Part shown: positions 10,562-51,400 of the stretch, one piece after another
Position numbering within the stretch: position 1 is the first letter of the stretch
Layout of the letters: each line of letters opens with the position of its first letter
DNA from: Eledone cirrhosa
Lineage: Eukaryota
DNA: 64,000 bases
Assembly: GCA_964016885.1 (NCBI GenBank)
Contig: OZ024742.1
Coordinates: forward strand, 322,834,001-322,898,000
Direction of reading: 5' to 3'
The notes under the pieces: generated by a model
Database searches by the model: none
Seen by the model: the letters and a program-made list of their open reading frames with translations, nothing else
Told to the model about the DNA's origin: nothing
Position numbers and translations under genes: made by a program

Positions 10562-11416
10562 AGCCATCATTGGTAGTATTTGAATTTGGAGCAGAGAGAT
10601 AAAGACTTCAAATTCAAAAGACAAATTAATCCTATTTCTAATTAACTAATTACTACAGAATATTTTTATCACATCAGTTTGGTGTTAGGAAGCAATTAGC
10701 TTTTATTATTTAGTTTGTGCCATAAAGTTTCATTCTGCAACCTTATATTTTGTTGCAATGAAATAATATAAGATTTCCTCTTTCCTGGAGACAGCATTGA
10801 AAGAAAACTTTCTACAACCAATATAAGAGTCTCTACATGGCTAGAAATAGCAGGCAAATACCTCAAAAATCACAACCATTGACTTAAAAAGGCTAAAACA
10901 CATTGGATTATAAATTCTGCACAACGCAGCTGAGATAAAGAATAATTTTAATCTCTCATCTCAGCCCATCTTCTGACTAAACCAGGGAAACAAAGACATG
11001 CCAAACATCTCATTCCACTATCACTGATTGTATTCCAACACAGACTTTGATCTGGTGTCTTTTAGAAGTATAACAAAGTCAGTGGTTTGCCTCTCACAGT
11101 TAATCCACCCATATTGGCTGCCATAGCACAAGATTTGAGTCTAGTACCAGTCAAGCAATGGGTCCGATATAATGAACTTTCCACTACCTCTAAAATTGCT
11201 GGCCTTGTGCATAAATTTGAAGCCATTTTTATTATCATCATCATCATGATTCCTTGGCAAAGTTATTAGGATATTGAACAAAATGCTTTGTAGAATTTAG
11301 TTAATGGCTCTTTATTTTCGAAGTTTAAATCATATCAAGGTCAAAAGTACCAGTCATACACTAGGGTCAATAAAATCCAATTATCTGTCCCTTAAAAATT
11401 GTTAGTTTTGTGCCCT

Positions 11417-14400
11417 GTTGTTACTGTTACTGATGTTGTTACTGTTACTGTTGTTACTGCTATTGTCACTGTTACTGTTGTTACTGTTACTGCTGTTGTC
11501 ACTGTTACTGCTATTGTCACTGTTACTGCTATTGTCACTGTTACTGCTATTGTCACTGTTACTGCTATTGTCACTGTTACTGCTATTGTCACTGTTACTG
11601 CTATTGTCACTGTTACTGCTATTGTCACTGTTACTGCTATTGTCACTGTTACTGCTATTGTCACTGTTACTGCTATTGTCACTGTTACTGCTATTGTCAC
11701 TGTTACTGCTATTGTCACTGTTACTGCTATTGTCACTGTTACTGCTATTGTCACTGTTACTGCTATTGTCACTGTTACTGCTATTGTCACTGTTACTGCT
11801 ATTGTCACTGTTACTGCTATTGTCACTGTTACTGCTATTGCTGTTACTGCTATTGCTGTTGTCACTGTTACTGCTACTGCTGTTGTCACTGTTACTGCTA
11901 CTGCTGTTGTCACTGTTACTGCTACTGCTGTTGTCACTGTTACTGCTACTGTCACTGTTACTGCTATTGCTGTTGTCACTGTTACTGCTATTGCTGTTGT
12001 CACTGTTACTGCTATTGCTGTTGTCACTGCTACTGCTACTGCTGTTGTCACCGTCACTGCTATTGCTGTTGTCACCGTTACTGCTACTGCTGATGTCACT
12101 GTTACTGCTACTGCTGATGTCACTGTTACTGCTACTGCTGATGTCACTGTTACTGCTGTTGTCACTGTTACTGCTACTGCTGTTGTCACTGTTACTGCTG
12201 TTGTCACTGTTACTGCTACTGCTGTTGTCACTGCTACTGCTGTTGTCACTGTTACTGCTGATGTCACTGTTACTGCTGATGTCACTGTTACTGCTACTGC
12301 TGTTGTCACTGTTACTGCTACTGCCACTGCTACTGCTGTTGTCACCGTTACTGCTGTTGTCACCGTTACTGCTGTTGTCACTGTTACTGCTGTTGTCACT
12401 GTTACTGCTGTTGTCACTGTTACTGCTGTTGTCACTGTTACTGCTGTTGTCACTGTTACTGCTGTTGTCACTGTTACTGCTGTTGTCACCGTTACTGCTG
12501 TTGTCACTGTTACTGCTGTTGTCACTGTTACTGCTGTTGTCACTGTTACTGCTACTGCTGTTGTCACTGCTACTGCTGTTGTCACTGTTACTGCTGTTGT
12601 CACTGTTACTGCTGTTGTCACTGTTACTGCTGTTGTCACTGTTACTGCTGTTGTCACTGTTACTGCTGTTGTCACTGCTACTGCTGTTGTCACTGTTACT
12701 GCTACTGCTGTTGTCACTGTTACTGCTGTTGTCACTGTTACTGTCACTGTTACTGCTATTGCAGTTGTCACTGTTGCTGCTACTGCTGTTGTCACTGTTA
12801 CTGCTATTGCAGTTGTCACTGTTGCTGCTACTGCTGTTGTCACTGTTACTGCTATTGCAGTTGTCACTGTTGCTGCTACTGCTGTTGTCACTGTTACTGC
12901 TGTTGTCACTGCTACTGCTGTTGTCACTGTTAAACTGCTATTGCTGTTGTTACTGCTACTGCTGTTACTGTTACTGCTGTTACTGTTAGTGCTACTGCTG
13001 TTGTCACTGTTACTGCTGTTGTCACTGTTACTGCTATTGTCACTGTTACTGCTATTGTCACTGTTACTGCTATTGTCACTGTTACTGCTATTGTCACTGT
13101 TACTGCTATTGTCACTGTTACTGCTATTGTCACTGTTACTGCTATTGTCACTGTTACTGCTATTGTCACTGTTATTGTCACTGTTACTGCTGTTGTCACT
13201 GTTACTGCTGTCACTGTTACTGCTGTCACTGTTACTGCTGTTGTTACTGTTACTGCTGTTGTTACTGTTACTGCTGTTGTTACTGTTACTGCTGTTGTTA
13301 CTGTTACTGCTGTTGTTACTGTTACTGCTGTTGTTACTGTTACTGCTGTTGTTACTGTTACTGCTGTTGTTACTGTTACTGCTGTTGTTACTGTTACTGC
13401 TGTTGTTACTGTTACTGCTGTTGTTACTGTTACTGCTGTTGTTACTGTTACTGCTGTTGTTACTGTTACTGCTGTTGTTACTGTTACTGCTGTTGTTACT
13501 GTTACTGCTGTTGTTACTGTTACTGCTGTTGTTACTGTTACTGCTGTTGTTACTGTTACTGCTGTTGTTACTGTTACTGCTGTTGTTACTGTTACTGCTG
13601 TTGTTACTGTTACTGCTGTTGTTACTGTTACTGCTGTTGTTACTGTTACTGCTGTTGTTACTGTTACTGCTGTTGTTACTGTTACTGCTGTTGTTACTGT
13701 TACTGCTGTTGTTACTGTTACTGCTGTTGTTACTGTTACTGCTGTTGTTACTGTTACTGCTGTTGTTACTGTTACTGCTGTTGTTACTGTTACTGCTGTT
13801 GTTACTGTTACTGCTGTTGTTACTGTTACTGCTGTTGTTACTGTTACTGCTGTTGTTACTGTTACTGCTGTTGTTACTGTTACTGCTGTTGTTACTGTTA
13901 CTGCTGTTGTTACTGTTACTGCTGTTGTTACTGTTACTGCTGTTGTTACTGTTACTGCTGTTGTTACTGTTACTGCTGTTGTTACTGTTACTGCTGTTGT
14001 TACTGTTACTGCTGTTGTTACTGTTACTGCTGTTGTTACTGTTACTGCTGTTGTTACTGTTACTGCTGTTGTTACTGTTACTGCTGTTGTTACTGTTACT
14101 GCTGTTGTTACTGTTACTGCTGTTGTTACTGTTACTGCTGTTGTTACTGTTACTGCTGTTGTTACTGTTACTGCTGTTGTTACTGTTACTGCTGTTGTTA
14201 CTGTTACTGCTGTTGTTACTGTTACTGCTGTTGTTACTGTTACTGCTGTTGTTACTGTTACTGCTGTTGTTACTGTTACTGCTGTTGTTACTGTTACTGC
14301 TGTTGTTACTGTTACTGCTGTTGTTACTGTTACTGCTGTTGTTACTGTTACTGCTGTTGTTACTGTTACTGCTGTTGTTACTGTTACTGCTGTTGTTACT

Positions 14401-14570
14401 GTTACTGCTGTTGTCACTGTTACTGCTGTTGTCACTGTTACTGCTGTTGTCACTGTTACTGCTGTTGTCACTGTTACTGCTGTTGTCACTGTTACTGCTG
14501 TTGTCACTGTTACTGCTGTTGTCACTGTTACTGCTGTTGTCACTGTTACTGCTACTGCTGTTGTTACTGA
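11417..14570. repeat. 3.1-kb trinucleotide-based minisatellite (18-bp ACTGTTACTGCTGTTGTY and variants)
   Basis: Directly visible, and it generates the spurious 500-1090 aa low-complexity ORFs. Confidence 0.97.
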
Positions 14571-35228: not shown

Positions 35229-35596
35229 TACGATATTTACAAATGGAGACTATTTATGAAACCATATTTATTTCATTATACATATTTCAAGGACACCAAG
35301 TTAAATTATAGTGTGCTTTCATCAGATAAAATATAATATAGATCAGTTTTATAAATAAATATTGACATACCCTTAAAGAATGCAACCATTGCTGTAGGAA
35401 GCTCCCGGATAGTCTATGCGGGAACTTCCAGTAATGGTTGCATTCTTTAAGGGTATGTCAATATTTATTTATAAAACTGATCTATATTATATTTTATCTG
35501 ATGAAAGCACACTATAATTTAACTTGGTGTCCTTGAAATATGTATAATGAAATAAATATGGTTTTATAAATATAGTTTCTATTTGTTAATATCGTA
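35229..35596. repeat. Long inverted repeat (foldback), arms about 170-180 bp
   Basis: 35229-35408 is the near-perfect reverse complement of 35418-35596; (TA)n lies on both sides. Confidence 0.9.
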
Positions 35597-37867: not shown

Positions 37868-40338
37868 ATCAGTGAACCCACAGCATTCACTCTGGATGTG
37901 TTGAACCAACTCCAACCAGTGAATCCACAGCATTCACTCTGGATGTATTGAACCAACTCCAACCAGTGAATCCACAGCATTCACTCTGGATGTGTTGAAC
38001 CAACTCCAACCAGTGAATCCACAGCATTCACTCTGGATGTGTTGAACCAACTCCAACCAGTGAATCCACAGCATTCACTCTGGATGTGTTGAACCAACTC
38101 CAATCAGTGAACCCACAGCATTCACTCTGGATGTGTTGAACCAACTCCAACCAGTGAATCCACAGCATTCACTCTGGATGTGTTAGCTAACTTTAACCAA
38201 TGAATCCGCAGCATTCACCCTGGATGTGTTGAACCAACTCCAACCAGTGAATCCACAGCATTCACTCTGGATGTGTTGAACCAACTCCAACCAGTGAATC
38301 CACAGCATTCACTCTGGATGTGTTAGCCAACTTTAACCAATGAATCCGCAGCATTCACTCTGGATGTGTTAGCCAACTTTAACCAATGAATCCACAGCAT
38401 TCACTCTGGATGTGTTAGCCAACTTTAACCAATGAATCCACAGCATTCACTCTGGATGTGTTAGCCAACTTTAACCAATGAATCCGCAGCATTCACTCTG
38501 GATGTGTTAGCCAACTTTAACCAATGAATCCACAGCATTCACTCTGGATGTGTTAGCCAACTTTAACCAATGAATCCACAGCATTCACCCTGGATGTGTT
38601 AGCCAACTTTAACCAATGAATCCACAGCATTCACCCTGGATGTGTTAGCCAACTTTAACCAATGAATCCACAGCATTCACCCTGGATGTGTTAGCCAACT
38701 TTAACCAATGAATCCACAGCATTCACTCTGGATGTGTTAGCCAACTTTAACCAATGAATCCACAGCATTCACCCTGGATGTGTTGAACCAACTCCAACCA
38801 GTGAATCCACAGCATTCACTCTGGATGTGTTAGCCAACTTTAACCAATGAATCCACAGCATTCACTCTGGATGTGTTAGCCAACTTTAACCAATGAATCC
38901 ACAGCATTCACTCTGGATGTGTTAGCCAACTTTAACCAATGAATCCACAGCATTCACCCTGGATGTGTTAGCCAACTTTAACCAATGAATCCACAGCATT
39001 CACCCTGGATGTGTTAGCCAACTTTAACCAATGAATCCACAGCATTCACTCTGGATGTGTTAGCCAACTTTAACCAATGAATCCGCAGCATTCACCCTGG
39101 ATGTGTTGAACCAACTCCAACCAGTGAATCCACAGCATTCACTCTGGATGTGTTAGCCAACTTTAACCAATGAATCCACAGCATTCACCCTGGATGTGTT
39201 AGCCAACTTTAACCAATGAATCCACAGCATTCACCCTGGATGTGTTAGCCAACTTTAACCAATGAATCCACAGCATTCACCCTGGATGTGTTAGCCAACT
39301 TTAACCAATGAATCCACAGCATTCACCCTGGATGTGTTAGCCAACTTTAACCAATGAATCCACAGCATTCACTCTGGATGTGTTAGCCAACTTTAACCAA
39401 TGAATCCGCAGCATTCACCCTGGATGTGTTGAACCAACTCCAACCAGTGAATCCACAGCATTCACTCTGGATGTGTTAGCCAACTTTAACCAGTGAATCC
39501 ACAGCATTCACTCTGGATGTGTTAGCCAACTTTAACCAATGAATCCACAGCATTCACCCTGGATGTGTTAGCCAACTTTAACCAATGAATCCACAGCATT
39601 CACCCTGGATGTGTTAGCCAACTTTAACCAATGAATCCACAGCATTCACTCTGGATGTGTTAGCCAACTTTAACCAATGAATCCGCAGCATTCACCCTGG
39701 ATGTGTTGAACCAACTCCAACCAGTGAATCCACAGCATTCACTCTGGATGTGTTAGCCAACTTTAACCAATGAATCCACAGCATTCACCCTGGATGTGTT
39801 AGCCAACTTTAACCAATGAATCCACAGCATTCACCCTGGATGTGTTAGCCAACTTTAACCAATGAATCCACAACATTCACCCTGGATGTGTTAGCCAACT
39901 TTAACCAATGAATCCACAGCATTCACTCTGGATGTGTTAGCCAACTTTAACCAATGAATCCACAGCATTCACCCTGGATGTGTTAGCCAACTTTAACCAA
40001 TGAATCCACAGCATTCACCCTGGATGTGTTAGCCAACTTTAACCAATGAATCCGCAGCATTCACCCTGGATGTGTTAGCCAACTTTAACCAATGAATCCA
40101 CAGCATTCACCCTGGATGTGTTAGCCAACTTTAACCAATGAATCCACAGCATTCACCCTGGATGTGTTAGCCAACTTTAACCAATGAATCCGCAGCATTC
40201 ACCCTGGATGTGTTAGCCAACTTTAACCAATGAATCCACAGCATTCACCCTGGATGTGTTAGCCAACTTTAACCAATGAATCCACAGCATTCACCCTGGA
40301 TGTATTGAACCAACTCTAACCAGTGAACCCACAGCATC
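37868..40338. repeat. 46/47-bp minisatellite, about 53 copies, two variants
   Basis: Units ctggatgtgttagccaactttaaccaatgaatccacagcattcacc (46 bp) and ctggatgtgttgaaccaactccaaccagtgaatccacagcattcact (47 bp). Confidence 0.97.
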
Positions 40339-44233: not shown

Positions 44234-47082
44234 ACGTTTAACGTCCGTGTTCCACGCTTGCATGGGTTTCGACGGGGGGTTTTCCCACTTGAGGCAAGAG
44301 TGATTGTCTTGCTCGCATAGGACTGTCTGGCAGGTTTTCTACAGTTGGATGCCCTTCCTAACACCAACCACATTTACAGTGTGGGTCTGGGAGGTTTTTA
44401 CCGTGTTGCCTACACGGCCACATTACAGCATGGACTGTGTGTTTTTTTGTCGTGACACCTACACGATCTCATTTGTTTCGGCCTGGATGGTGTGGCACCA
44501 ACACAACTTTACATAGAAGGGGGCGGTGTGGATGGGGTGGGGGTGGTGGGGCGGGGGTGTATTTTGTTAGAGATGCCTACTGACTGTAGTAGGTTTTACT
44601 ATGTATTTAGGTAAGGCGGGTCTTCTCTATTACTGAGTACCGCCAAAGGTCTCGGTCCAGTGACATTGTCTTGGAGAGGTGGAAGTGTGTGAGGTCGGAG
44701 TTTATCAGCTCGTCCCAGGTTTTTCTAGGTCTGCCTATTCCGTGGCTACCGTCTATCTTTATTGCCCTGCACTTTGTTATACAGCTATCGACTTTCATGC
44801 GCATCACGTGTCCATACCAACGTAGCCTTCTCTCGAGTAAACAACATCTGATCCCTCTTATTTCTAATTTTTTCCTTAGTTCGTTTATGCTTTGCCGTTC
44901 ACGTATATTACTATTACACATCCAGCGGAGCATGCAAGCTTCGTTCCTCTCTAGTCTGCGTATATCCTCTGCACACAATGCCCAGGTCTCACTGCCATGC
45001 AACATTGCTGTTCGTATGCAGGCATCAAACAACCTGCCTTTCATTTTTAGGGAGAACCCTTTAGCGGCTAATAGTGGTATAAGCTCTCTGAACTTTTTCC
45101 ATCCAGTTCTGACTCTAGCTACTGTACTTTCAGAGCACCCTCCCCCACTGCTGATTTTGTCACCCAGGTAACGGAAGCTGTCCACTATTTCTATAGAGCC
45201 CTCTGCGCAGTTGAAAGAGCTAGTATTTTGTGGGCACTTGCTGCTACTTATTGCACCAGAGCACCGGCCACATGTGAAATCTATGTTCTTAGTTAGCTTA
45301 CCTGTCATCCCACTACATCTTTTATGCACCCATACTTTGCATTTCTGACACAAAATGGAGTTTCTACCTACGCCTTTCCTACACACTGAGCATGGCCACT
45401 TCCCAGAAGGGACCGCCGCCTTATTTTCTTTCCTACAAACTAGAACTTTGGTCTTAGCCAGATTAATTTTAAGGCCTTTTGATTCTAGGCCGTGCTTCCA
45501 TGTTTGGAATTTCTTCTCTAGCTCGGCCATTGATTCAGCTATGAGTGTTAGGTCGTCTGCGTATAGGAGTTCCCATGGGCAGCCTGTCTTGAACTCCTCT
45601 GTTATAGCCTGAAGGGCAATAATAAATAGTAGTGGGCTGAGAACAGAGCCCTGATGGACGCCAACTTTTACGCTAAACTCTTCACTATATTCGTTGTTAA
45701 TTCTAACCTTGCTGACTGTTTCTTTATACATGGCTTGTATAGCCCTCACAAGCCATTCGTCAACGCCTAGTTTTCTAAGAGCCCACCAGATAATGGAGCG
45801 GGGGACTCTGTCGAAGGCTTTCTCCAAGTCGACAAAAGCTAAGTAGAGGGGTTTACCTTTAGCTAGGTACTTCTCCTGTAGTTGTCGTACTATGAAAAGA
45901 GCGTCTGTGGTACTTTTGCCTGACACAAACCCGAACTGCATTTCATCTAGGTCAATTCTCTCTCTGATTAGTTGCGCTATTACTTTTTCCGTGACCTTCA
46001 TGACCTGGTCGATTAATTTAATGCCTCTATAGTTACTCCTATCTAGGGCGTCTCCTTTACCCTTATAACAGTTAACGATGATGCTGCTATGCCAGTCCTT
46101 CGGAACAACCCCATTCTGTACGACTTGGTTAACTATGCGGGTGACCATGGTGTGTCCCACCGTGCCAGATGCCTTCAGCATCTCAGCAACTATTTCCGAA
46201 GGCCCAGCCGCCTTACCCGTCTTCATATCCTTGATTGCCTTACTTATTATACTCCCCTCGACTAACACTGCTGGTCCCTCTATTGTGTCGATATGGGGGA
46301 GACTGTCTTTCTCCCATTTATTCTCCTCATTTAGTAGCCTTTCATAGTGACACTTCCAAGCTACCTTCTTATCAGCGTCGGTGATGGCAAGTGTGCCATC
46401 GTCGTTTAGTACACACTTCTCCCCGACAATATCACGGTTTTCCTTGACGCATTGCCTAGCAATCCTGAACACCTCACGTTTTTGGTCATCGCGTTGTAGA
46501 ACATGCTTGAACTTTCTTTCCTCAGCTTCCCTTCTTGCTAAGTACACTTGTCTCCTAGCTTCCCTCCTGGCCACTTGATAGTCTTCTCTACTTCCCCCAT
46601 CCCGCCATACTTTCCAAGCCTGCTTTTTGGCCTTAATTGACCCCTCCACCTTACTGTTCCACCACCATGTTACTCTCCTCCTGCCTACAGGCCTGCTCCA
46701 GCCACAGACTTCGTCTGTCGCCATCAGCAGGTTTGCTTTCAGAAATTCCCACTCTCCCTCTATATTGTCCGACTCTAAATGTTCTTCCTTACTGTCGAAA
46801 GCATCAAGTAATATGCTTTGAAATTTATTCCTGGCTGTGGGGTCCTTTAGCTTCCATATTTTTCTCCTGAGGATAGTCCTCTTCTGCTGTCGAGTACGTC
46901 TCGTCCTGACTATGAGGTCGCTAATTATCAGTCTATGTTGGGAGGTGCATTCTTCATGGGGGAGGGATTTAGTGTTTACAACAGACACTCTGTCACGTCT
47001 TCTGGTAAGGATATAATCTACCTGGCTTGTGTGTTCCCCGGATCTATAGGTGATCAGGTGATTGTCACGTTTTTTGTCACGT
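44200..47082 (-). mobile_element. RTE-clade LINE, 5'-truncated, with uninterrupted ORF, 3' UTR and (GAT)n tail
   Basis: ORF 47082->44607 has the APE C-terminus (SQVDYIL, SQHRLI), RT motifs ([31 protein letters not shown]) and RGRPRKTW-type C-terminus. Tail (atc)n at 44200-44232; the 5' end is lost at a (TA)n tract. Confidence 0.93.
44607..47082 (-). CDS. RTE endonuclease (partial)/reverse transcriptase ORF, about 825 aa, with Cys/His PHD-like insert
   Basis: No stops across the non-microsatellite part of the 1282-aa ORF. CSVC...CQKC...H..C...CGRC follows the YADD region. The N-terminal YI-repeat part of the track ORF is microsatellite artefact. Confidence 0.88.
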
Positions 47083-47609
47083 ATATATGTATATATATAT
47101 ATGTATATATATATGTATATATATATATGTATATATATATATGTATATATATATATGTATATATATATATGTATATATATATGTATATATATATATGTAT
47201 ATATATATGTATATATATATATGTATATATATATATGTATATATATATGTATATATATATATGTATATATATATATGTATATATATATGTATATATATAT
47301 GTATATATATATATGTATATATATATGTATATATATATATGTATATATATATGTATATATATATATGTATATATATATATGTATATATATATATGTATAT
47401 ATATATGTATATATATATATGTATATATATATGTATATATATATATGTATATATATATGTATATATATATATGTATATATATATGTATATATATATATGT
47501 ATATATATATATGTATATATATATATGTATATATATATATGTATATATATATATGTATATATATATATGTATATATATATATGTATATATATATGTATAT
47601 ATATATATG

Positions 47610-47640
<31 letters not shown>

Positions 47641-47681
47641 GTATATATGTATATATATATGTATATGTATATATGTATATA

Positions 47682-47734
<53 letters not shown>

Positions 47735-48009
47735 ATATGTATATATATATATGTATATATATGTATATATATATATGTATATATATATATGTATATATAT
47801 GTATATATATGTATATATATGTATATATATATATGTATATATATGTATATATATGTATATATATGTATATATATGTATATATATATATGTATATATATAT
47901 ATGTATATATATATATGTATATATATATATGTATATATATGTATATATATATATGTATATATATATATGTATGTATATGTATATATGTATATATATGTAT
48001 ATATGTATG

Positions 48010-48058
<49 letters not shown>

Positions 48059-48059
48059 G

Positions 48060-48090
<31 letters not shown>

Positions 48091-48217
48091 GTATATATAT
48101 ATGTATATATATATATATGTATATATATATGTATATATATATATATGTATATATATGTATATATGTATATATATATATATGTATATATATGTATATATAT
48201 ATATATGTATATATATG

Positions 48218-48268
<51 letters not shown>

Positions 48269-48434
48269 GTATATATATATATATGTATATATATGTATGT
48301 ATATATATGTATATATATATATATGTATATATATGTATATATATATATATATATGTATATATATGTATATATATATATATGTATATATATGTATATATAT
48401 ATATATGTATATATATGTATATATATATATATAT
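47083..48434. repeat. (TA)n microsatellite with periodic TG interruptions
   Basis: Directly visible. Confidence 0.97.
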
Positions 48435-51400
48435 ATTAAAAATGTACATCCACATATGTATACTGAAATACTAGTATGCATATGAATACACACACGTGTA
48501 CATATGTAGATGTACCGAGTTTTTCACTGGACACTTTACTGTGAGTGTCCAGCTATTCCGTATGTAAACACACAGACAAACCGGTTTTTAGAGTCATACT
48601 GGTTTTCGAGGAAACACCTTTCCTCTATTCTCCAGAAAGCCAGACAAGGAATATTGGACTAGTTTCGATGTTGTTACATCTCATCAGCAATATTTACCTA
48701 TCTTCCGGCCTTTCTAGAGAATCGTAAAAGCACATATCGTTATATGCTTTTTCTATGAAAATTAGTAGTGGGCAGACTAATTTGCATAGAGCGTGAGTAC
48801 GTACCGGTTCAGCGGAGACGATAAAAACAAATAACGAAACGAAATTAAATTTCGTTTCGTTTGTAACTCACTTTTGTATGACTGACGCTTAAACAATTAA
48901 ATTAAAAATGTACATCCACATATGTATACTGAAATACTAGTATGCATATGAATACACACACGTGTACATATGTAGATGTACCGAGTTTTTCACTGGACAC
49001 TTTACTGTGAGTGTCCAGCTATTCCGTATGTAAACACACAGACAAACCGGTTTTTAGAGTCATACTGGTTTTCGAGGAAACACCTTTCCTCTATTCTCCA
49101 GAAAGCCAGACAAGGAATATTGGACTAGTTTCGATGTTGTTACATCTCATCAGCAATATTTACCTATCTTCCGGCCTTTCTAGAGAATCGTAAAAGCACA
49201 TATCGTTATATGCTTTTTCTATGAAAATTAGTAGTGGGCAGACTAATTTGCATAGAGCGTGAGTACGTACCGGTTCAGCGGAGACGATAAAAACAAATAA
49301 CGAAACGAAATTAAATTTCGTTTCGTTTGTAACTCACTTTTGTATGACTGACGCTTAAACAATTAAATTAAAAATGTACATCCACATATGTATACTGAAA
49401 TACTAGTATGCATATGAATACACACACGTGTACATATGTAGATGTACCGAGTTTTTCACTGGACACTTTACTGTGAGTGTCCAGCTATTCCGTATGTAAA
49501 CACACAGACAAACCGGTTTTTAGAGTCATACTGGTTTTCGAGGAAACACCTTTCCTCTATTCTCCAGAAAGCCAGACAAGGAATATTGGACTAGTTTCGA
49601 TGTTGTTACATCTCATCAGCAATATTTACCTATCTTCCGGCCTTTCTAGAGAATCGTAAAAGCACATATCGTTATATGCTTTTTCTATGAAAATTAGTAG
49701 TGGGCAGACTAATTTGCATAGAGCGTGAGTACGTACCGGTTCAGCGGAGACGATAAAAACAAATAACGAAACGAAATTAAATTTCGTTTCGTTTGTAACT
49801 CACTTTTGTATGACTGACGCTTAAACAATTAAATTAAAAATGTACATCCACATATGTATACTGAAATACTAGTATGCATATGAATACACACACGTGTACA
49901 TATGTAGATGTACCGAGTTTTTCACTGGACACTTTACTGTGAGTGTCCAGCTATTCCGTATGTAAACACACAGACAAACCGGTTTTTAGAGTCATACTGG
50001 TTTTCGAGGAAACACCTTTCCTCTATTCTCCAGAAAGCCAGACAAGGAATATTGGACTAGTTTCGATGTTGTTACATCTCATCAGCAATATTTACCTATC
50101 TTCCGGCCTTTCTAGAGAATCGTAAAAGCACATATCGTTATATGCTTTTTCTATGAAAATTAGTAGTGGGCAGACTAATTTGCATAGAGCGTGAGTACGT
50201 ACCGGTTCAGCGGAGACGATAAAAACAAATAACGAAACGAAATTAAATTTCGTTTCGTTTGTAACTCACTTTTGTATGACTGACGCTTAAACAATTAAAT
50301 TAAAAATGTACATCCACATATGTATACTGAAATACTAGTATGCATATGAATACACACACGTGTACATATGTAGATGTACCGAGTTTTTCACTGGACACTT
50401 TACTGTGAGTGTCCAGCTATTCCGTATGTAAACACACAGACAAACCGGTTTTTAGAGTCATACTGGTTTTCGAGGAAACACCTTTCCTCTATTCTCCAGA
50501 AAGCCAGACAAGGAATATTGGACTAGTTTCGATGTTGTTACATCTCATCAGCAATATTTACCTATCTTCCGGCCTTTCTAGAGAATCGTAAAAGCACATA
50601 TCGTTATATGCTTTTTCTATGAAAATTAGTAGTGGGCAGACTAATTTGCATAGAGCGTGAGTACGTACCGGTTCAGCGGAGACGATAAAAACAAATAACG
50701 AAACGAAATTAAATTTCGTTTCGTTTGTAACTCACTTTTGTATGACTGACGCTTAAACAATTAAATTAAAAATGTACATCCACATATGTATACTGAAATA
50801 CTAGTATGCATATGAATACACACACGTGTACATATGTAGATGTACCGAGTTTTTCACTGGACACTTTACTGTGAGTGTCCAGCTATTCCGTATGTAAACA
50901 CACAGACAAACCGGTTTTTAGAGTCATACTGGTTTTCGAGGAAACACCTTTCCTCTATTCTCCAGAAAGCCAGACAAGGAATATTGGACTAGTTTCGATG
51001 TTGTTACATCTCATCAGCAATATTTACCTATCTTCCGGCCTTTCTAGAGAATCGTAAAAGCACATATCGTTATATGCTTTTTCTATGAAAATTAGTAGTG
51101 GGCAGACTAATTTGCATAGAGCGTGAGTACGTACCGGTTCAGCGGAGACGATAAAAACAAATAACGAAACGAAATTAAATTTCGTTTCGTTTGTAACTCA
51201 CTTTTGTATGACTGACGCTTAAACAATTAAATTAAAAATGTACATCCACATATGTATACTGAAATACTAGTATGCATATGAATACACACACGTGTACATA
51301 TGTAGATGTACCGAGTTTTTCACTGGACACTTTACTGTGAGTGTCCAGCTATTCCGTATGTAAACACACAGACAAACCGGTTTTTAGAGTCATACTGGTT

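What the first reader, a model, noticed from the sequence alone, without database searches (positions are those of the whole stretch)
48627..48722. Hammerhead has a 2-bp palindromic stem III (ACUAGU) and a long bulged stem I, a design suited to dimeric cleavage
Seen: GAA-ACTAGT-C leaves only a 2-bp stem III with a 2-nt loop, but ACUAGU is self-complementary, so two adjacent copies could form a 6-bp intermolecular stem III. Stem I extends through AGATAGG/CCTTGTCT and ATTCTCTAGAAAG/CTTTCTGGAGAAT with bulges that could contact loop II. Established: minimal hammerheads with palindromic stem III (newt, Penelope pLTRs, avocado sunblotch viroid) can cleave as double hammerheads. Inference: tandem organisation is functionally required, linking copy number to RNA processing.
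Basis: partly seen in the sequence, partly recalled or inferred. Interest (0 to 1): 0.75.

Follow-up and report, generated by a model that had tools for sequence, protein, structure and literature searches.

The report
Pair-cutting hammerhead in mobile RNA repeat
Each 466-base unit of this young, much-copied mobile repeat carries an intact hammerhead self-cutting RNA motif whose third helix is a six-letter palindrome, so it likely cuts mainly when two neighbouring copies pair and would stay uncut as a one-unit RNA circle; the design is already published for newt and axolotl repeats, so this is an ordinary new member.

Summary
In detail: a canonical type I hammerhead (minus strand) with helix III = ACUAGU, 24 copies in this insertion and about 3,100 family cores in the genome. 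It belongs to a non-LTR retrozyme inserted in (TA)n as two opposed arms with Penelope-type ends (33 of 33 scorable insertions: one long, one short 3' end). Pairing between copies is supported by comparison: 11 of 12 distinct even-length helix III segments from other hammerhead families in this genome are self-complementary through the centre, and helices I and II covary in a sister family while ACUAGU is kept. Insertions look copied from a one-unit template read through the ribozyme site many times. But the long bulged helix I is not a dimer signature (in newts it is what permits single-copy cleavage), folding energies do not settle dimer versus monomer, two copies suffice, and no RNA data were available. 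Dimeric cleavage by this design is published (1988, 2014, 2020). The scan noted palindromic helix III in other genomes and two-armed retrozymes elsewhere in this genome before. New member of a known kind; interest 0.3.

The parts
48627..48722 (-). Extended type I hammerhead, first complete copy of the array (repeats every 466 bp)
48681..48687 (-). Catalytic core CUGAUGA
   Evidence: invariant in 11 of 11 aligned variants
48667..48680 (-). Helix II (5 bp) and loop II AACA (AAUA in an older subfamily)
   Evidence: 2 of 5 pairs change on both sides in the sister family
48658..48663 (-). Palindromic helix III segment ACUAGU
48656..48657 (-). Predicted cleavage site, 3' of C17 (48657), triplet GUC
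   Evidence: position from the hammerhead consensus; cleavage itself not tested
48650..48694 (-). Proximal helix I (48688-48694 with 48650-48656), followed by the internal loop that would contact loop II
   Evidence: 3 of 6 pairs change on both sides; the contact is inferred
48780..48787 (-). Octamer-like ATGCAAAT in a hairpin, 100 nt upstream of the core; kept in two other hammerhead families
   Evidence: promoter role untested
48435..59365 (-). Long arm: 23.5 tandem 466-bp units, 23 hammerheads, 22 of 23 units identical; outer 3' end at unit position about 222-228
59362..59884 (+). Short inverted arm, about 520 bp, identical to the unit; outer 3' end at unit position 302
59552..59582 (+). 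24th hammerhead core, in the inverted arm
47082..48434 (.). TA-rich microsatellite, left flank (insertion target)
59885..60022 (.). TA-rich microsatellite, right flank

Best explanation
This is an intact type I hammerhead motif in each unit of a tandem, non-coding mobile repeat (non-LTR retrozyme), and its palindromic ACUAGU likely acts as a copy-number switch: two neighbouring copies in a transcript would swap helix I strands and pair their palindromes into a shared 6-bp helix III, cut together and release one unit, whereas a lone copy would cut only slowly. The released unit has its ends held together by helix I and would be ligated into a circle (inferred from axolotl, mussel and coral retrozymes). 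In the circle the single ribozyme has no partner and is predicted to tuck the palindrome's UAG against the core's CUG, so it would survive while a Penelope-type reverse transcriptase, primed at two fixed internal sites from both sides of a break in (TA)n, copies it round and round into two opposed arrays. The bulged helix I and loop II likely give the usual tertiary contact and would allow some leaky single-copy cleavage. Shown: sequence, covariation, copy structure, insertion ends. Inferred: cleavage, dimer dependence, circle, the enzyme.
For: Cross-family test: 157 distinct motifs in 1.12 Mb of held loci, 0 in the reversed control; 11 of 12 distinct even-length helix III segments (6-12 nt) pair through both central pairs, which a hairpin loop does not need (binomial 1.5e-8 if independent; 8 of 9 and 2e-6 for clusters of two or more members). 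Sister family changes helices I and II on both sides but keeps core and ACUAGU (13 of 34 pairs with two-sided change, 0 of 500 shuffles). Within the family the only variant seen fixed across an insertion is ACUGGU, which still pairs by G-U (L163 14 of 14; L164 all minus-arm copies, its plus-arm copy carrying one further change; L165 2 of 2); palindrome-breaking variants were sporadic in the 14 loci examined. The double-hammerhead fold is nested and lies 0.4 kcal/mol above the minimum in a 562-nt two-copy stretch, two single hammerheads 17 above; a natural ACUCGU variant costs about 5-6 more. Circular monomer: the active single fold costs +8.4. Copying read through the cleavage site: arm 5' ends are spread evenly round the unit, 5 of 78 in positions 1-20 against 3.3 expected. 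One-unit template: a cluster of six A-to-G changes occurs 8 times in the genome, all in one insertion and on both arms; another pattern 14 times, all in one array; this window's 25 copies of position 98 carry G on a background held by none of the six other G98 loci. Penelope footprint: 33 of 33 scorable two-armed insertions have one end near 302 and one near 228; a reverse transcriptase plus GIY-YIG element in the same genome shows the same layout. Published analogues: PMC7229834, PMC4209133, PMC11167929, PMC8557442.
Against: No cleavage or RNA data for this family. In natural longer contexts the model does not favour the double form: +13.5 (circular dimer) and +13.8 (962-nt linear) against +8.4 for one single hammerhead, and about equal (+8.8) with a 200-nt leader. 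Newt single hammerheads with an extended helix I cleave as monomers (PMC6155905); coral and mussel monomers cleave at about 0.8 and 0.1 per min. Eight of nine Xenopus retrozyme dimers did not cleave in vitro (preprint), and the Anolis Penelope hammerhead needs protein and is not needed for insertion. One family here has a non-palindromic AGAACU/AGGACU, and 2 of 4 odd-length segments are not self-complementary. Families share ancestry, so the binomial figure overstates. A-to-G bias over all 41 insertions was not significant (22 against 17 T-to-C, P 0.22). Read-through of the cleavage site also fits uncut linear templates. No autonomous partner with matching ends was found among 50 GIY-YIG loci.
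Confidence: 0.6

Rival explanations
1. Extended single hammerhead: the helix I internal loop and loop II contact stabilises a one-copy active fold well enough for processing, and pairing between copies only speeds it up or is a leftover from Penelope ancestors.
For: Newt precedent for monomer cleavage needing an internally looped helix I (PMC6155905). Helix I length, internal loop U and loop II adenines are kept while the helices covary. In long contexts one single fold costs less than the double fold. The 96-nt local hairpin is very stable (-35 kcal/mol) and would form first.
Against: Central self-complementarity in 11 of 12 segments is not needed by a monomer. The axolotl motif with the same helix III and full tertiary contacts is poor as a monomer. 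Templates were read through up to 24 times uncut.
Confidence: 0.25
2. The ribozyme rarely cuts on its own in either form; cutting needs a protein (for example the Penelope protein) or hardly happens, and arrays come from uncut multimeric RNA or from DNA-level expansion after insertion.
For: No pile-up of arm 5' ends at the cleavage site. Protein-assisted and dispensable hammerhead in the Anolis element; 8 of 9 Xenopus dimers inactive. Some old arrays show higher-order variant patterns typical of DNA-level expansion (L166, L040).
Against: Identical multi-site A-to-G patterns in every unit and both arms of single insertions, found nowhere else, are hard to get from a linear multimer and point to a one-unit circle, which needs two cuts. 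Core and helices are conserved with two-sided changes.
Confidence: 0.15

Closest known systems
Axolotl retrozyme Rtz_331 / HHR_Amex1 and newt satellite 2 (Cervera and de la Pena 2020, PMC7229834; passages and Discussion read)
   Same: Type I hammerhead, helix III of one pair capped by a palindromic tetraloop, loop 1-loop 2 elements, short tandem non-coding units below 45% GC, strongly folded monomer.
   Different: 466-nt unit against about 330; A/U-rich palindrome with weak self-duplex (-4.8 kcal/mol); activity and circles were shown for axolotl, not here; two-armed insertions with fixed ends are not described in the passages read.
Canonical metazoan type I hammerhead and Penelope pLTR hammerheads (Cervera and de la Pena 2014, PMC4209133; Perreault 2011, PMC3088659; passages read)
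   Same: Helix I of 6 bp, helix II of 4-5 bp, helix III of 1-2 bp with a 2-4 nt palindromic loop, proposed dimeric fold, proposed protection of monomeric circles.
   Different: Not the minimal loop-less form: no extra base before helix II, long extended helix I; not attached to an ORF.
Penelope-like elements, insertion footprint (Frangieh 2024, PMC11167929, parts 1-2 of 4; Craig 2021, PMC8557442, passages)
   Same: Tandem plus inverted 5'-truncated arms, a tail at one end only, two internal reverse-transcription start sites, AT-rich or (TA)n targets.
   Different: No ORF; the two ends lie about 70 nt apart against 30-40 reported (about 45-55 in one autonomous family here); arms can hold 23 units.
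Rfam Hammerhead_HH9 (RF02275)
   Same: Full-length match, core, helix I and internal loop (E 3.7e-8).
   Different: 38.9 bits, below the 52-bit cut-off; helix III five bases shorter; HH9 motifs are isolated copies in amniotes (recalled, and PMC7229834 passage).

Membership tests
Type I hammerhead ribozyme | Core CUGANGA, GAAA, UH around three helices, open helix I | tested here: met
Type I hammerhead ribozyme | Helices supported by changes on both sides | tested here: met
   (13 of 34 pairs; most come from one sister family, two rows)
Type I hammerhead ribozyme | Self-cleavage after C17 | not testable with these tools
   needs a bench assay
Dimer-type (double) hammerhead | Helix III too short for a monomer and self-complementary through the loop | tested here: met
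Dimer-type (double) hammerhead | Double fold favoured over single fold in the natural transcript | tested here: inconclusive
   +2.5 to +13.8 by context, against +8.4 for one single fold; tertiary contacts not modelled
Dimer-type (double) hammerhead | Dimer cleaves faster than monomer | not testable with these tools
   shown for axolotl only
Minimal PLE hammerhead (min-HHR) | No loop 3, short helix I, extra base before helix II | tested here: not met
   sequence against the description in PMC4209133
Non-LTR retrozyme | Tandem non-coding units of a few hundred bp, low GC, a type I hammerhead in every unit, dispersed copies | tested here: met
Non-LTR retrozyme | Strongly self-paired monomer | tested here: met
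   circular fold -153 kcal/mol, z -10.5 on the ribozyme strand, -6.2 on the other (60 shuffles each)
Non-LTR retrozyme | Expressed as linear and circular unit-length RNA | not testable with these tools
   no RNA holder listed; only indirect genomic signs
Non-autonomous Penelope-like element | Tandem/inverted arms, tail at one end, microsatellite target | tested here: met
Non-autonomous Penelope-like element | Terminal sequence shared with an autonomous element | tested here: inconclusive
   none among 50 GIY-YIG loci, out of 150 scored and 10,597 candidates

The most novel reading that the evidence does not exclude
The palindromic helix III is the on/off switch that answers the question left open by Cervera and de la Pena 2020, of how animal retrozyme circles avoid cutting themselves: on in a tandem precursor, off in the one-unit circle. 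The genome records the off state directly, as single edited RNA circles that two Penelope reverse transcriptases copied up to 24 times through an uncut ribozyme, and it supplies a natural series of at least a dozen different palindromes to test the switch.
Probability: 0.4. Interest if true: 0.55.

Novelty: new member of a known kind. Interest (0 to 1): 0.3.

Why it matters
The design itself is textbook for animal hammerheads. Its value is as a test case: a very young family with identical copies, natural palindrome variants (wobble-keeping and breaking), a sister family with swapped helices and many unrelated families in one genome would let one measure whether pairing between copies is what turns cleavage on in precursors and off in circles, and whether Penelope enzymes copy such circles, both long proposed and, in the papers read here, not shown for this step.

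Tried and rejected
DNA search of the own genome with 241 nt found no candidate (common words are skipped), so patterns were used. One search used a spacer two bases too long and missed this family; one search replaced it. An apparent non-palindromic family 'AUAGCU' was a wrong register: its real helix III is AUAUGUAU. ACAUGU was 64 of 94 matches (my hand count), a further palindrome, but helix I was not confirmed for these decayed copies, so they are not in the 11-of-12 tally. A suspected pile-up of arm ends at the cleavage site vanished with exact mapping. A family-wide A-to-G bias was not significant. L048's 5.5-kb interior holds a LINE-type reverse transcriptase ORF, not a Penelope partner. 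The sister unit next to a GIY-YIG ORF in L127 is a separate insertion in (TA)n. No RNA holder listed; the six runs are of unrecorded kind, and unit-length contigs in X4 and X5 cannot tell circle from tandem DNA, so they are not used. microRNA hits are low-complexity hairpin matches far below their cut-offs. One row of alignment A1 had wrong coordinates; A2 replaced it. Four primary papers (PMC333935, PMC361788, PMC1369408, PMC5785218) are not held and Forster 1988 was not read; their results are taken from reviews. No supplements were read; family lists there may already include this host. A search for hammerhead, retrozyme, octopus and cephalopod (15 of 27 listed) showed no paper on such a family; the host was not identified here. 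Assembly error in the number of identical units is possible and untested.

Full report
1. Observation. They hold a complete type I hammerhead: helix I AAUAUUG/CAAUAUU, CUGAUGA, helix II GAUGU-AACA-ACAUC, GAA, ACUAGU, C17, with the predicted cut between 48657 and 48656. The stretch folds at -35.3 kcal/mol, z -5.5, and matches Rfam HH9 over its full length at E 3.7e-8, below the curated cut-off. The palindrome self-pairs over 6 bp.

2. The element. The motif recurs every 466 bp: 23 copies on the minus strand from 48435 to 59365, 22 of 23 units identical (one change at 58105), then an inverted arm of about 520 bp to 59884 with a 24th copy; both outer ends abut TA microsatellite. No ORF of 120 codons or more is listed inside the array. 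The unit folds as a circle at z -10.5 on the ribozyme strand. The exact core occurs 1,633 times in the 3-Gb genome, 3,100 times with both loop II variants and any helix III. This meets the sequence criteria of a non-LTR retrozyme (PMC7229834, passages and Discussion; preprint 10.64898/2026.07.22.740005, parts 1-3 of 5).

3. How the copies were made. Of 61 insertions fetched (mostly the first ones listed on contig C1, so not a random sample), 39 had a clean inversion junction; 33 of these had both outer 3' ends at defined sites, and in all 33 one end lay near unit position 302 and the other near 228, counted from the cleavage site (the other 6 were cut by the fetch or ended elsewhere). In the first set all 22 such insertions had TA-rich flanks on both sides by a lenient criterion. 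Tandem plus inverted arms, a tail at one end and two internal start sites are the Penelope signature (PMC11167929 parts 1-2 of 4; PMC8557442 passages). The genome holds long ORFs with reverse transcriptase and C-terminal GIY-YIG domains, and one such family shows the same two-armed, one-tail layout in (TA)n and carries its own hammerhead with another palindrome, AGUACU. None of 50 GIY-YIG loci shared terminal sequence with this unit, so the partner is unknown. The 78 arm 5' ends are spread evenly round the unit, with no excess at the cleavage site (5 in positions 1-20, 3.3 expected): the template was read through the ribozyme site. Some insertions carry private A-to-G clusters in every unit: six changes in 25 nt found 8 times in the genome, all in one insertion, on both arms; another pattern 14 times in one array. 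In this window all 25 copies of unit position 98, on both arms, carry G, and the six other G98 loci lie on different backgrounds. The simplest reading is a one-unit circular RNA copied repeatedly. Against it, a pooled A-to-G bias over 41 insertions was not significant, and later DNA-level expansion is visible in old arrays.

4. Is the palindrome for pairing between copies? Comparison says likely. A scan of 1.12 Mb of held loci (fetched around motif and GIY-YIG hits, plus 26 arbitrary 9.9-kb stretches, with overlaps) that required helices I and II but nothing inside helix III gave 157 distinct motifs in 21 clusters and none in the reversed control. Of 12 distinct even-length helix III segments, 6 to 12 nt long, 11 pair through both central pairs; AGAACU is the exception; 2 of 4 odd-length segments pair around one central base. 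A hairpin loop has no need for this. The binomial figure (1.5e-8) assumes independence and overstates. A sister family changes helices I and II on both sides while keeping core, loop II and ACUAGU. Within the family, ACUGGU, which keeps G-U pairs, is shared across three insertions of different subfamilies, while breaking variants were sporadic in the 14 loci examined. The same regularity was published as a supplement legend in 2011 (PMC3088659) and as the description of the canonical animal motif in 2014 (PMC4209133).

5. Energies do not decide it. The double hammerhead is a nested fold: outer helix I from copy A 5' and copy B 3', shared helix III, inner helix I closing the unit. It lies 0.4 kcal/mol above the minimum in a 562-nt stretch (ensemble +2.5 to +2.9), but +8.8 with a 200-nt leader and +13 to +14 in longer linear or circular dimers, where one single hammerhead costs +8.4. 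Both active forms compete with a predicted off fold in which the palindrome's UAG pairs with the core's CUG. The model lacks core and loop-loop contacts, which count twice for the double form.

6. A review reports that newt single hammerheads can cleave and need internally looped helix I extensions matched to loop II (PMC6155905; the primary papers are not held). Swapping helix I strands between identical copies gains no pairs, and the local hairpin would form first (inference). It more likely supplies the tertiary contact and closes the excised unit for ligation. As to copy number: two cuts are needed to free a unit in any case, a pair is enough, and 15 of 41 insertions hold at most one intact core per strand, so the link is a threshold of two, not a dose.

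7. Mechanism, with status. Shown: anatomy, covariation, array and end structure, private variants shared by all units. Inferred: transcription of the ribozyme strand; paired cleavage of tandem precursors with slow single-copy cleavage; ligation to a circle that stays uncut for lack of a partner; copying by a Penelope-type enzyme from two internal sites. Confidence 0.6; extended single hammerhead 0.25; largely inactive or protein-dependent ribozyme 0.15 (8 of 9 Xenopus dimers did not cleave; protein-assisted Anolis motif).

8. Novelty. The closest case, axolotl HHR_Amex1, has the same helix III build and was tested as monomer and dimer; the tandem-layout argument is in reviews (PMC6765202 passages). 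This is a new member of a known kind. The scan's earlier notes report two-armed Penelope-type retrozymes many times in this genome, one with a 467-bp unit that is probably this family, and palindromic helix III in other genomes; I had seen the two fixed ends before that look-up and took the editing lead and the two-enzymes-on-a-circle wording from it. What remains of interest is that the 2020 paper leaves open how animal retrozyme circles escape self-cleavage, and this family offers natural material to test the palindrome as the answer. Interest 0.3.

Noticed in passing
window 35498-35545 (+): A single hammerhead of another family (long helix II, helix III segment AUAUGUAU, 8-bp helix I), followed within about 60 nt by TA repeats.
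   Followed up: partly
window 48780-48787 and L126, L138: An octamer ATGCAAAT lies 88-100 nt upstream of the core in this family, its sister family and the AUGCAU family (3 of 8 families looked at); with a second near-octamer in inverted position in the first two. Possible internal promoter; an snRNA-type promoter for newt satellite 2 is recalled, not read.
   Followed up: partly
window 44607-47050 (-): Long open frame of a LINE-type reverse transcriptase, 5'-truncated against the TA microsatellite that also holds the retrozyme; a near-identical copy sits between the arms of the insertion in L048.
   Followed up: no
window 60020-60600 (+): Short unique stretch between two TA microsatellites whose frame ends in a C2H2-like zinc finger, probably the 3' end of another retroelement.
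   Followed up: no
L226 (G000:C21:27569500-27576500) and L163 (G000:C20:6701500-6711400): Clusters of A-to-G changes in the octamer hairpin, identical in every unit of one insertion and absent elsewhere; look like RNA editing fixed by reverse transcription.
   Followed up: yes
L116, L120, L125, L217: Penelope-like family (reverse transcriptase plus GIY-YIG) with an AGUACU hammerhead about 385 nt after the stop codon, two-armed insertions in (TA)n and a tail of about 45-55 nt at one end.
   Followed up: partly
L031:5186, L038, L113, L123-L125: A hammerhead family with non-palindromic AGAACU/AGGACU whose copies end in TA repeats a few bases after the cleavage site; the one exception to the palindrome rule.
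   Followed up: no
L173 (G000:C4:303499000-303504000): An insertion whose arms converge (tail to tail at unit position 288) instead of diverging.
   Followed up: no
window 11415-14553 and 37873-40337: Two other tandem arrays: an 18-bp unit (173 copies) and a 46-bp unit (53 copies, 95% matches).
   Followed up: no
runs X4, X5: Two other coded organisms each hold one clean unit-length contig about 97% like the unit at depth about 10; run kind not on record, meaning unexplained.
   Followed up: no
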